A stretch of 64,000 nt of DNA from Candidatus Aenigmatarchaeota archaeon (lineage in GTDB: Archaea; Aenigmatarchaeota; Aenigmatarchaeia; CG10238-14; SpSt-28). Positions 14,781 through 14,874 of the stretch are shown one piece after another. The DNA is taken from NCBI GenBank assembly GCA_038733315.1, contig JAVYPJ010000002.1, positions 84,571-148,570 of the forward strand, given 5' to 3'. Under the pieces are notes generated by a model that was given only the letters and a program-made list of their open reading frames with translations, was not told the origin of the DNA and made no database searches. Position 1 is the first letter of the stretch; each line of letters starts with the position of its first letter. Made by a program: the position numbers and the translations under genes.

Positions 14781-14874
14781 GCCCCGGTAGCTTAGCGGTA
14801 GAGCGCCTGCCTTGTATGGCACTGCTTGCTATCGAGCAAGCAGGAGGTCGGGGGTTCAAATCCCCCCCGGGGCT
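14781..14874 (+). tRNA. tRNA-Thr(UGU) with 22-nt intron at 37/38 (14817..14838)
   Basis: GCCCCGG/CCGGGGC acceptor, U73, CCTGC/GCAGG stem. BHB central helix C32-U33-U34-G35 pairs with intron CGAG. Confidence 0.93.

What the first reader, a model, noticed from the sequence alone, without database searches (positions are those of the whole stretch)
14781..14874. tRNA-Thr(UGU) intron is built from reverse complements of both flanking exon strands
Seen: intron T-GGCA-CTGCTTGCT-ATCG-AGCA. GGCA pairs with exon TGCC (positions 29-32), closing a loop with the anticodon. CTGCTTGCT pairs over 9 bp with AGCA+AGCAG across the 3' splice site. This two-hairpin fold is mutually exclusive with the anticodon stem and the BHB helix (CUUG/CGAG), whose outer intron helix is weak. 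Inference: a pre-tRNA conformational switch that could gate splicing (e.g. by temperature) or present an anticodon-loop mimic to modification enzymes before splicing.
Basis: partly seen in the sequence, partly recalled or inferred. Interest (0 to 1): 0.7.

Follow-up and report, generated by a model that had tools for sequence, protein, structure and literature searches.

The report
tRNA-Thr intron that unzips its anticodon stem
The intron of this hot-spring archaeon's tRNA-Thr carries inherited antisense copies of both strands of the anticodon stem, which fold the precursor into a shape that cannot be spliced; it looks like a cut-down relative of the methylation-guide intron known from archaeal tRNA-Trp.

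Summary
Window 14781-14874 is a tRNA-Thr(UGU) gene with a 22-nt intron at the canonical 37/38 site. GGCA pairs with exon nt 29-32. CUGCUUGCU pairs over 9 bp with AGCA|AGCAG across the 3' splice site. This two-hairpin fold is the predicted ground state from 37 to 90 C and excludes the anticodon stem and the BHB (bulge-helix-bulge splicing motif) helix.

It is not chance. Six clade alleles fill six of the ten highest refolding costs among 113 archaeal pre-tRNA-Thr. Hairpin 1 covaries across Aenigmatarchaeota tRNA-Ile(UAU)/Thr(UGU) introns. Hairpin 2 is kept in all seven clade alleles, with one compensatory pair.

Four longer alleles (33-34 nt) place the hairpin-2 5' arm directly before a K-loop-like motif (a C'/D'-type kink motif bound by L7Ae). 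That is the layout of a one-guide box C/D methylation guide, and it points at G39. The window allele has lost this motif.

My reading: it descends from a guide-type intron, and its guide-target duplex still competes with the splicing fold. A temperature switch is not supported, because no crossover appears. The function is not shown, and no RNA data exist.

The neighbouring tRNA-Lys(UUU) intron carries a clearer one-guide K-loop module.

The parts
14781..14874 (+). tRNA-Thr(UGU) gene with intron, no encoded CCA
   Evidence: Rfam RF00005 at 64.4 bits; sequence read
14781..14816 (+). 5' exon (nt 1-37); anticodon UGU at 14813-14815
   Evidence: Cloverleaf assignment from the sequence
14817..14838 (+). 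22-nt intron at the canonical 37/38 position: UGGCACUGCUUGCUAUCGAGCA
14839..14874 (+). 3' exon (nt 38-73)
14808..14811 (+). Hairpin 1, 5' arm: exon nt 29-32 (UGCC)
   Evidence: MFE fold. The helix covaries across 21 distinct Aenigmatarchaeota Ile/Thr precursors
14818..14821 (+). Hairpin 1, 3' arm: intron nt 2-5 (GGCA). In the BHB fold it pairs instead with intron nt 11-14 (the outer helix h')
14822..14830 (+). Hairpin 2, 5' arm: intron nt 6-14 (CUGCUUGCU). This is the antisense, guide-like element against the 3' splice junction and nt 38-42
14831..14834 (+). AUCG tetraloop. It sits where the 33-34-nt alleles carry a 15-16-nt loop; the window allele is 11-12 nt shorter and lacks their K-loop-like module
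   Evidence: Alignment A1
14835..14843 (+). Hairpin 2, 3' arm: the last 4 intron nt (AGCA) plus exon nt 38-42 (AGCAG). The 3' splice site (14838|14839) lies inside the helix
14811..14814 (+). BHB central helix, 5' strand (C32 U33 U34 G35)
14833..14836 (+). BHB central helix, 3' strand (CGAG). 3' bulge C21 A22 | A38 = 14837-14839; 5' bulge U36 A37 | U1 = 14815-14817

Best explanation
The intron is a canonical-position BHB intron that carries two antisense segments.

- Segment 1 (GGCA) takes the 5' strand of the anticodon stem (nt 29-32).
- Segment 2 (CUGCUUGCU) takes the 3' strand (nt 38-42) plus the last four intron nucleotides.

Together they turn the anticodon stem and the BHB central helix into two adjacent hairpins. 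Segment 1 is transcribed before the 3' exon and segment 2 forms a local hairpin, so this fold should form first and be the resting state of the precursor (inferred). The splicing endonuclease can only act after the precursor refolds to the BHB. At hot-spring temperatures the refolding barrier is low enough for conformational capture (inferred from the model).

The architecture is inherited and selected (shown by comparison). Its origin is most likely a one-guide, K-loop-type (box C'/D') methylation-guide intron. In the 33-34-nt alleles, segment 2 lies immediately 5' of a GA...GA K-loop, and the fifth-nucleotide rule points to G39. This parallels the tRNA-Trp intron, which guides methylation of C34 and U39. 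In that reading the alternative fold is the guide-target complex, and segment 1 is the helper that frees the target strand.

The window allele lost the K-loop in a deletion and kept the duplex, now capped by a tetraloop. In this genome it probably acts only as a brake and ordering device on splicing, or is on its way to decay (inferred).
For: 1. The alternative fold is the MFE and dominates at 37-90 C. P(hairpin 2) is 0.99 / 0.84 / 0.60 at 37 / 75 / 85 C, and P(BHB helix H) is at most 0.008.
2. The clade is an outlier. The cost of forming the anticodon stem is 4.5-10.4 kcal/mol in the window and five relatives, against a median of about 0.1 in 113 archaeal intron-bearing pre-tRNA-Thr(UGU); the six fill six of the top ten places.
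3. Shuffle null: 7/400 shuffles reach the window's value, 0/400 reach L136's or L200's. A helix of at least 9 bp arises in 9/20,000 shuffles.
4. Hairpin 2 is kept in all alleles despite indels: 9 bp in L119 and L136, 8 bp in L200 and L260, and a re-registered 6 bp (CCUGCU/AGCAGG) in L124 and L181. There is one compensatory pair, U11-A22 against C11-G33. C11 breaks a pair of the BHB outer helix but keeps the alternative helix.
5. Hairpin 1 covaries over 21 distinct Aenigmatarchaeota Ile(UAU)/Thr(UGU) precursors: 82.9% of cells paired against 70.8% in shuffles (0/500 shuffles reach it). Pair 29:i5 is GC 6, CG 4, UA 4; pair 31:i3 is CG 10, UG 9, AU 2. Only 8 of 107 Thr introns from other archaea show at least 4 contiguous pairs.
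6. The same two-hairpin design occurs in tRNA-Ile(UAU) of the window, L008 and L011. There too, the two 3'-bulge nucleotides covary with their upstream partners.
7. The long alleles share N14 A15 G16 A17 [5-6 nt] G A U N, with the 14:26 pair being U-A, U-A, A-U and G-C. This is a K-loop layout directly 3' of the 8-9-nt antisense arm.
8. The window's tRNA-Lys(UUU) intron has a near-consensus guide + CUGA + spacer + AUGAAGA. This is conserved in three relatives while the loop and spacer vary.
9. Half-mer K-loop guides are active and specific in vitro with L7Ae (PMC9670817).
10. The tRNA-Trp intron guides methylation of C34 and U39 (PMC4090602, PMC11408192).
Against: - The window allele has no K-loop, no box C/D and no other recognisable protein site, so it cannot itself be called a guide.
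- The K-loop in the relatives is non-consensus (UAGA/AAGA/GAGA instead of CUGA; AUGAUAA and similar instead of RUGAUGA). It rests on four related sequences. In L260 an all-Watson-Crick inner stem is an alternative.
- Hairpin-2 covariation within the Thr clade is a single pair in closely related sequences (29/500 shuffles reach it).
- Hairpin 1 is conserved in many Ile introns that lack hairpin 2, so it must have a role that does not depend on a guide.
- Nearest-neighbour energies at 75-90 C are extrapolations. They ignore tertiary structure, Mg2+ and proteins.
- Presence of Nop5, fibrillarin and L7Ae in this genome was not established.
- There are no RNA reads.
Confidence: 0.45

Rival explanations
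1. The alternative fold presents the anticodon loop to protein-only enzymes that modify the precursor only while the intron is present. Hairpin 1 (nt 29-32 with intron nt 2-5) is the functional element. It displays U33-A37 plus intron nt 1 as a 6-nt loop, so that U34 and/or U36 of the UNU anticodons (Ile UAU, Thr UGU) are modified before splicing. Hairpin 2 merely stabilises this state.
For: Hairpin 1 has the strongest comparative support and is shared by Ile(UAU) and Thr(UGU) introns across the phylum, including introns without hairpin 2. In some alleles it extends to 5-7 bp and leaves the anticodon plus A37 in a tetraloop. Intron-dependent pseudouridines 34 and 36 in eukaryotic tRNA-Ile(UAU) are a precedent (cited in PMC4090602 and PMC11408192).
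Against: No enzyme or modification is known for these organisms. The loop has 6 nt rather than 7, so it is not a true anticodon-loop mimic. This reading does not explain why the long arm targets nt 38-42 or sits next to a K-loop-like motif in relatives.
Confidence: 0.2
2. Neutral relic or by-product. The complementarity comes from how the intron arose or changed (local duplication of exon strands, a deletion in a longer intron) and has no present function. A relaxed-specificity endonuclease and high growth temperature simply tolerate it.
For: The intron contains repeated exon-like words (CUGC, UGC, AGCA|AGCA). The window allele is a deletion derivative lacking the K-loop-like module. For the window allele itself the shuffle test is only moderately significant (7/400). 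DPANN (the archaeal superphylum that includes Aenigmatarchaeota) endonucleases with the L3 loop go with relaxed motifs and disrupted tRNA genes (PMC5829648). At 75-85 C the barrier is only 7-11 kcal/mol.
Against: A neutral relic should decay. Instead three length classes with different sequences all keep a helix to the same target strand. There is also a compensatory pair, and hairpin 1 covaries with three Watson-Crick pair types. The clade is an extreme outlier among 113 archaeal precursors.
Confidence: 0.2
3. Temperature-gated splicing switch. The alternative fold blocks splicing at low temperature and melts at growth temperature, coupling tRNA-Thr(UGU) supply to temperature.
For: Between 37 and 85 C the predicted anticodon-stem probability rises about 100-fold (0.001 to 0.14), and the refolding barrier falls from 19.4 to 7.4 kcal/mol.
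Against: The alternative fold stays favoured by 3.2-4.7 kcal/mol at every temperature from 37 to 90 C, so there is no crossover. The BHB central helix never exceeds 0.8% without protein. The longer alleles are even more biased, at 5-7 kcal/mol at 70 C. A hot-spring symbiont has no obvious need for a switch at 37-60 C.
Confidence: 0.1
4. Chance complementarity in a short, GC-rich intron.
For: Short helices are common in shuffled introns: the most frequent longest helix is 3-4 bp. Whole-intron shuffles reach the window's refolding cost in 50/400 cases.
Against: A helix of at least 9 bp arises in 9/20,000 shuffles. The feature recurs in six further alleles and in a second tRNA.
Confidence: 0.02

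Closest known systems
Box C/D guide RNA nested in the intron of euryarchaeal pre-tRNA-Trp (guides 2'-O-methylation of C34 and U39)
   Same: An intron segment is antisense to exon nucleotides of the anticodon arm, including the 3' strand around nt 39. To my own knowledge of the primary papers (Clouet d'Orval 2001, Bortolin 2003, Singh 2004), which I could not open here, guide pairing and the BHB fold exclude each other in that system too. The long alleles of this intron family have guide + GA...GA K-loop, with the fifth-nucleotide rule pointing at G39. The neighbouring tRNA-Lys intron points at U34.
   Different: The tRNA-Trp intron is about 65 nt or longer, with a full C/D plus C'/D' set and two guides (PMC4090602). 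Here the relatives have at most one degenerate K-loop and one guide in 33-34 nt. The window allele (22 nt) has no box at all. The tRNA and the phylum (DPANN) also differ.
Canonical archaeal hBHBh' tRNA intron at 37/38
   Same: Same position, two 3-nt bulges, a 4-bp central helix CUUG/CGAG, and the anticodon stem as the flanking helix.
   Different: In 107 other archaeal pre-tRNA-Thr(UGU) the anticodon stem and BHB are essentially the predicted ground state (median cost about 0.1 kcal/mol). Here the cost is 4.5-10.4 kcal/mol. The outer helix is offset by two unpaired nucleotides, so this is a relaxed motif.
Engineered monopartite (half-mer) K-loop guide MMG5 and C/D-free guides (Wang, Yang and Ye 2022, PMC9670817)
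   Same: The layout 5'-guide then K-loop, as in the tRNA-Lys(UUU) intron and the 33-34-nt Thr alleles. Duplexes of 8-11 bp suffice when L7Ae is present.
   Different: Those guides are artificial and act in trans on oligonucleotides. The authors state that natural C/D-free guides remain an open question. The window's Thr allele does not match the C/D-free design either, which needs a stem plus a 3' overhang next to the guide.
Intron-dependent anticodon modifications in eukaryotes (pseudouridines 34/36 of tRNA-Ile(UAU), m5C34 of tRNA-Leu(CAA))
   Same: The intron reshapes the anticodon region so that an enzyme acts only on the precursor. The same anticodon family (UAU) is involved.
   Different: In eukaryotes the anticodon pairs with the intron. 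Here the anticodon is left in a loop and the stem strands are the ones paired. No enzyme is known.
RNA thermometers and riboswitch-like two-state RNAs
   Same: Two mutually exclusive secondary structures share strands.
   Different: There is no predicted crossover with temperature and no ligand pocket. The 'off' state is favoured throughout.

Membership tests
Archaeal BHB (endonuclease-spliced) tRNA intron | Intron in a tRNA gene whose removal restores a standard cloverleaf; canonical position 37/38 | tested here: met
   Removing 14817-14838 gives a 72-nt tRNA with a 7-nt anticodon loop CUUGUAA; Rfam matches at 64.4 bits
Archaeal BHB (endonuclease-spliced) tRNA intron | Two 3-nt bulges separated by a 4-bp helix, with each splice site after the second bulge nucleotide | tested here: met
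   Helix C32U33U34G35 / C17G18A19G20 (one G.U); bulges U36 A37|U1 and C21 A22|A38. The helix is conserved in all six aligned alleles
Archaeal BHB (endonuclease-spliced) tRNA intron | Flanking helices h and h' directly adjoining the bulges (strict hBHBh') | tested here: inconclusive
   h is the 5-bp anticodon stem. h' (GGCA/UGCU) exists but is separated from the 5' bulge by A15 U16, so the motif is relaxed
Archaeal BHB (endonuclease-spliced) tRNA intron | Cleavage by the splicing endonuclease and ligation in vivo | not testable with these tools
   Three metatranscriptome runs gave no reads on the gene
Intron-borne box C/D methylation guide (tRNA-Trp type) | Box C/D or C'/D' motifs (RUGAUGA and CUGA) able to form a K-turn or K-loop | tested here: not met
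   The window's 22-nt intron has none. The relatives' 33-34-nt alleles have a degenerate K-loop with a covarying closing pair. That counts as inconclusive for them and not met for the window
Intron-borne box C/D methylation guide (tRNA-Trp type) | Guide of about 8-12 nt complementary to the target, immediately 5' of box D/D', with the target paired to the fifth nucleotide upstream | tested here: inconclusive
   The 9-nt antisense arm is present in the window. In the long alleles it abuts N-A-G-A, and the fifth nucleotide pairs with G39. In the window there is no box to count from
Intron-borne box C/D methylation guide (tRNA-Trp type) | Genome encodes L7Ae, Nop5 and fibrillarin; the target nucleotide is 2'-O-methylated | not tested
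   A motif scan of the window and the held loci found none of these genes in the window or in the close relatives' loci, but these cover only a small part of the genomes. No modification data exist
RNA thermometer or thermal switch | The population shifts from one conformer to the other within the physiological temperature range | tested here: not met
   The alternative fold is favoured by 3.2-4.7 kcal/mol at all temperatures from 37 to 90 C. Only the barrier and the minor population change

The most novel reading that the evidence does not exclude
Hot-spring Aenigmatarchaeota use their tRNA introns as minimal, cis-acting, single-guide methylation guides. These would be natural 'half-mer' K-loop guides: Lys(UUU) aimed at U34, and the long Thr(UGU) alleles aimed at G39. 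The window's box-less Thr allele would be the extreme case. It could still work without L7Ae because guide and target are tethered in one hairpin, which would make it a natural counterpart of the engineered C/D-free guides. Hairpin 1 would be a dedicated 'stem-opener' that makes the anticodon stem available.
Probability: 0.12. Interest if true: 0.85.

Novelty: new variant of a known kind. Interest (0 to 1): 0.6.

Why it matters
What tRNA introns are for is a long-standing open question. The only well-established archaeal case of an intron working on its own tRNA is the box C/D intron of tRNA-Trp.

A conserved intron design that unzips the anticodon stem, found in a second and third tRNA species and in a DPANN lineage, would extend that principle. 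It would give a natural series for study:
- full K-loop module (Lys);
- degenerate K-loop (long Thr alleles);
- no K-loop (this window).

This series could show how much of the box C/D apparatus a guide needs, a question raised but left open by the engineered half-mer and C/D-free guides.

There is also a practical warning. Structure-based tRNA and intron finders and BHB predictors can be misled in these genomes: ARAGORN mis-called two of the three intron-bearing tRNAs here and missed the third.

Tried and rejected
- **Synteny via the thermosome next to the gene.** The tRNA-Thr is not syntenic with it in relatives. The loci did yield 24 tRNA-Ile(UAU) precursors.
- **Related loci via the 782-aa SMC/SbcC-type (Rad50-like) protein.** Orthologous tRNA-Lys and tRNA-Ile were recovered instead through a GTPase homologue and exact-protein look-ups.
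- **First metagenome scan with fixed exons.** No hits. A second, looser scan gave mostly intron-less bacterial tRNAs plus one valuable relative, L260.
- **RNA evidence.** Three metatranscriptomes from the same study gave no reads on the gene, so splicing, circular intron and precursor levels remain unknown.
- **Population variants from metagenome contigs.** These confirmed the allele and a co-occurring 20-nt allele, but gave no new informative variants.
- **Box C/D or K-turn in the window's Thr intron, a stand-alone copy of the guide, or canonical C/D sRNA genes in the 64 kb.** None found. The only K-loop-like match is in the tRNA-Lys intron, and about 0.6 such matches are expected by chance, so position and conservation carry the argument rather than the match itself.
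- **Motif scan for fibrillarin, Nop5 and L7Ae in the held sequence.** None in the window or in the close relatives' loci. This is uninformative, because the held sequence covers only a small part of these genomes.
- **Alternative BHB registers, an H-type pseudoknot combining hairpin 1 with helix H, and a K-turn using the guide-target helix as the C stem.** Considered on paper and rejected for geometry or sequence reasons.
- **DNA-level palindrome as a protein site.** Not favoured, because L200 keeps the helix through a G.U pair, which only works in RNA.
- **Primary tRNA-Trp papers (PMC92551, PMC275556, PMC2441990).** Not held. Statements about them rest on reviews and on my own knowledge.
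Full report
**What is there**

The window comes from a hot-spring member of Candidatus Aenigmatarchaeota (DPANN). The thermosome gene just upstream of the finding is 91-93% identical to proteins of four hot-spring MAGs. The DNA itself occurs in hot-spring metagenome runs.

Rfam finds eight tRNAs in the window. Three carry introns: Thr(UGU) at 14781-14874, Ile(UAU) at 27023-26926 on the minus strand, and Lys(UUU) at 31354-31462. ARAGORN mis-calls the first two and misses the third.

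The Thr gene reads: 5' exon 14781-14816, a 22-nt intron UGGCACUGCUUGCUAUCGAGCA at 14817-14838 between nt 37 and 38, and 3' exon 14839-14874. The neighbouring genes encode an RCC1-repeat protein, prefoldin, SepF, the thermosome, tRNA-Ser, a CPBP protease, a radical-SAM protein, Nudix and HAD. None relates to tRNA processing.

**Check of the observation**

- GGCA (intron nt 2-5) with UGCC (nt 29-32).
- CUGCUUGCU (intron nt 6-14) with AGCA|AGCAG (the last four intron nt plus nt 38-42), 9 Watson-Crick pairs, loop AUCG.
- The BHB central helix CUUG/CGAG, with bulges U36 A37|U1 and C21 A22|A38.

ViennaRNA returns the two-hairpin fold as the minimum-energy structure of the 94-nt precursor: -50.3 kcal/mol, z = -3.7.

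One detail needs correcting. When the anticodon stem is enforced, the intron does form an outer helix, G2G3C4A5 with U11G12C13U14. It is offset from the 5' bulge by A15 U16, so the motif is a relaxed BHB.

A perfect helix of at least 9 bp between a shuffled intron interior and the 3' junction occurs in 9 of 20,000 shuffles. The allele is present with no differences from the window in contigs of two metagenome runs, alongside a co-occurring 20-nt allele.

**Thermodynamics and kinetics (model only)**

| Quantity | 37 C | 75 C | 85 C |
|---|---|---|---|
| Ensemble advantage of the alternative fold over anticodon stem + central helix (kcal/mol) | 4.7 | 3.3 | 3.3 |
| P(hairpin 2) | 0.99 | 0.84 | 0.60 |
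| P(anticodon stem) | 0.001 | 0.066 | 0.14 |
| Estimated refolding barrier, alternative fold to BHB (kcal/mol) | 19.4 | 11.2 | 7.4 |

The advantage of the alternative fold stays between 3.2 and 4.7 kcal/mol across 37-90 C. The central helix never exceeds 0.8% at any temperature.

So there is no thermal crossover. Heat makes the two states exchange quickly and raises the minor, splice-competent population, which an endonuclease could capture. These numbers extrapolate nearest-neighbour parameters and ignore tertiary contacts, Mg2+ and proteins.

**Is it more than a quirk of one gene?**

A degenerate pattern scan collected 113 distinct archaeal intron-bearing pre-tRNA-Thr(UGU). For most of them, forming the anticodon stem costs about 0.1 kcal/mol, meaning the BHB fold is the predicted ground state. 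The window and five relatives cost 4.5-10.4 kcal/mol and fill six of the top ten places: L119, L136, L200, L124, L181 and the window.

Shuffling the intron while keeping the helix-H strand and the bulge reaches the observed cost in 7/400 shuffles for the window, 0/400 for L136, 0/400 for L200 and 9/400 for L124.

**The relatives**

Seven alleles fall into three length classes:

| Length | Loci | Intron |
|---|---|---|
| 33-34 nt | L119, L136, L200, L260 | A/U GGCA CUGCUCGC.. AGA....GAU.. CAAG CG |
| 22 nt | window | see above |
| 20 nt | L124, L181 | UGGCGCUACCUGCUAGAGAA |

All keep a helix between an internal intron segment and the 3' junction or the 3' strand of the anticodon stem:
- L119 and L136: 9 bp (CUGCUCGCU with AGCG|AGCAG).
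- L200 and L260: 8 bp.
- L124 and L181: a re-registered 6 bp (CCUGCU with AGCAGG).

On the six-sequence alignment A1, 91% of cells in the alternative structure are paired. One pair changes on both sides: U11-A22 in the window against C11-G33 in the long alleles. The C at position 11 breaks a pair of the BHB outer helix but keeps the alternative helix. With so few, closely related sequences this is suggestive only (29/500 shuffles reach it).

**Hairpin 1 is the better-supported helix**

Loci fetched through the thermosome carry tRNA-Ile(UAU) genes with 37/38 introns that begin N-G-G/U-C-N. Over 21 distinct Ile/Thr precursors, the helix nt 28-32 with intron nt 2-6 gives:
- 82.9% of cells paired, against 70.8% in shuffles (0/500 reach it);
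- a covariation score of 0.35 against 0.14 (0/500);
- pair 29:i5 as G-C 6, C-G 4, U-A 4;
- pair 31:i3 as C-G 10, U-G 9, A-U 2.

In Thr introns of other archaea, only 8 of 107 show at least four contiguous pairs. The start of the intron is therefore a maintained mimic of the 3' strand of the anticodon stem, shifted by one nucleotide.

A strong hairpin 2 also occurs in tRNA-Ile(UAU) of the window (6 bp), L008 (8 bp) and L011 (7 bp). In these, the two 3'-bulge nucleotides covary with their upstream partners: AG with CU, AA with UU. In the BHB fold these positions are unpaired, so the splicing motif does not explain the covariation.

**What the long arm looks like in the longer alleles**

Directly 3' of the antisense arm, the four long alleles share N14 A15 G16 A17, then 5-6 nt, then G A U N. 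The 14:26 pair is U-A, U-A, A-U and G-C.

This is the layout of a box D'/C' K-loop: tandem sheared G.A pairs closed by two Watson-Crick pairs and a short loop. The boxes are non-consensus (UAGA/AAGA/GAGA for CUGA; AUGAUAA, AUGAUUU and AUGAUCU for RUGAUGA). Counting five nucleotides upstream of the D'-like box, the guide nucleotide is C9, which pairs with G39. If the D'-like box is read one position differently, the target would be nt 40.

Three of the target-strand pairs come from the intron's own 3' end, so a full duplex exists only before splicing.

The window allele replaces the 15-nt loop of L136 (A15-A29) with the AUCG tetraloop; it is 11 nt shorter than L136 and lacks the K-loop-like module. 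The long form occurs in the most divergent members (L200, L260), so it is probably ancestral. Whether the K-loop was lost once or twice is unresolved, because tRNA-body similarity and tRNA-Ser synteny point to different groupings.

**Support from the neighbouring tRNA-Lys(UUU)**

Its 35-nt intron (31392-31426) reads G-UUUUAAA-CUAAAAGCU-CUGA-UAUAAA-AUGAAGA-A.
- The 9-10-nt segment is antisense to nt 29-37.
- It is followed by a perfect box D', a spacer and a 6/7 box C'.
- The fifth-nucleotide rule points at U34.

In three relatives (L208-L210), the guide, CUGA and AUGAAGA are identical, while the loop (CGAAGAA, UGAAUAA, UGAGAAA) and the spacer (AAUA, GAUA) differ. Part of box C' doubles as the BHB helix strand, but the guide and CUGA have no role in the BHB.

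Positions 34 and 39 are the two positions guided by the tRNA-Trp intron of Euryarchaeota (PMC4090602 and PMC11408192). Half-mer guides with a single K-loop and one 5' guide are active and specific in vitro with L7Ae on 8-11-bp duplexes (PMC9670817). Natural C/D-free guides are described there as an open question.

**Most likely mechanism**

Shown:
- two exclusive folds exist;
- the alternative fold is the predicted ground state;
- it is inherited, and both helices have comparative support;
- the relatives have a guide + K-loop layout.

Inferred:
- The alternative fold forms first during transcription, because segment 1 is made before the true 3' strand and segment 2 is a local hairpin.
- In the long alleles it is the guide-target complex of a one-guide methylation RNP acting on nt 39 before splicing.
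- Hairpin 1 acts as the helper that holds the displaced 5' strand.
- The precursor then refolds and is cut by a relaxed-specificity DPANN endonuclease (PMC5829648).
- In the window allele the RNP-recruiting part is gone. The duplex can now only delay or order splicing, or it is decaying.

I put this at 0.45. The rivals are:
- presentation of the anticodon loop to protein-only, intron-dependent enzymes through hairpin 1 (0.2);
- a neutral relic (0.2);
- a temperature gate (0.1);
- chance (0.02).

**Novelty**

Intron-borne antisense elements that compete with the BHB fold are known for tRNA-Trp. Four things would be new:
- the tRNA species (Thr, Ile, Lys);
- the DPANN lineage;
- the minimal one-guide or box-less form;
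- the phylum-wide 'stem-opener' helix.

I therefore class it as a new variant of a known kind. It does not meet the defining features of a box C/D guide in this window, so it should not be filed as one.

**Limits**

- No RNA, modification or enzyme data exist.
- Only seven Thr alleles are available.
- The K-loop is degenerate, and in L260 an all-Watson-Crick inner stem is an alternative.
- The presence of Nop5, fibrillarin and L7Ae is unverified.
- The primary tRNA-Trp papers could not be read.

Noticed in passing
window 31354-31462 (+); intron 31392-31426: guide 31400-31408, CUGA 31409-31412, AUGAAGA 31419-31425: The tRNA-Lys(UUU) intron has the layout of a natural one-guide K-loop box C'/D' methylation guide. 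A 9-10-nt segment antisense to nt 29-37 is followed by CUGA, a 6-nt spacer and AUGAAGA, and the fifth-nucleotide rule points to U34. Guide and boxes are identical in three related genomes (L208-L210), while the loop and spacer vary. ARAGORN missed this gene.
   Followed up: partly
window 26926-27023 (-); intron 26962-26985: tRNA-Ile(UAU), which ARAGORN called His 'atg', has an intron of the same design as the Thr intron: UGGCG against nt 29-32, and CGCUCU against AG|AGCG across the 3' splice site. From general knowledge, a UAU isoleucine tRNA implies AUA decoding without agmatidine, as in Nanoarchaeum and Korarchaeum. The ortholog in L210 has an 18-nt intron with only a 4-bp second helix.
   Followed up: partly
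L124 and L181 (20-nt Thr intron alleles): The intron segment CUACCUGCU is also complementary over 9 contiguous bp, plus 3 more after a 2-nt bulge, to the D-loop and 3' D-stem (AGCAGGUAG..CGC) of its own tRNA. The full-length MFE uses this pairing in L124 at 37 and 75 C and in L181 at 75 C.
   Followed up: no
L008-L050: Many Aenigmatarchaeota tRNA-Ile(UAU) genes next to the thermosome gene carry additional introns in the D-arm region, and ARAGORN assigns them wrong identities. In the 17-nt anticodon-side introns (AGGCCNCUGAGCGUAAA) the helix-H strand is followed by 6-7 unpaired nt instead of a 3-nt bulge, so the splicing motif is strongly relaxed.
   Followed up: no
L130, L150 (Thermoplasmata), L086 and L152 (Woesearchaeota); L256, L324, L325: A few unrelated archaeal pre-tRNA-Thr(UGU) also show a high predicted cost of forming the anticodon stem (3-7 kcal/mol). 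Intron-driven alternative folds may therefore exist outside this clade.
   Followed up: no
window 27079-31311 (+): A gene cluster of a Metallophos phosphoesterase, a 782-aa SMC/SbcC-type (Rad50-like) protein and a second Metallophos protein (a likely Mre11-Rad50 cluster) lies between tRNA-Ile and tRNA-Lys. The order is conserved in L208-L210.
   Followed up: no
window 10706-12103 (+): A 465-aa protein with an N-terminal transmembrane segment, a DUF2341 domain and three RCC1 repeats, unusual for a small DPANN genome.
   Followed up: no
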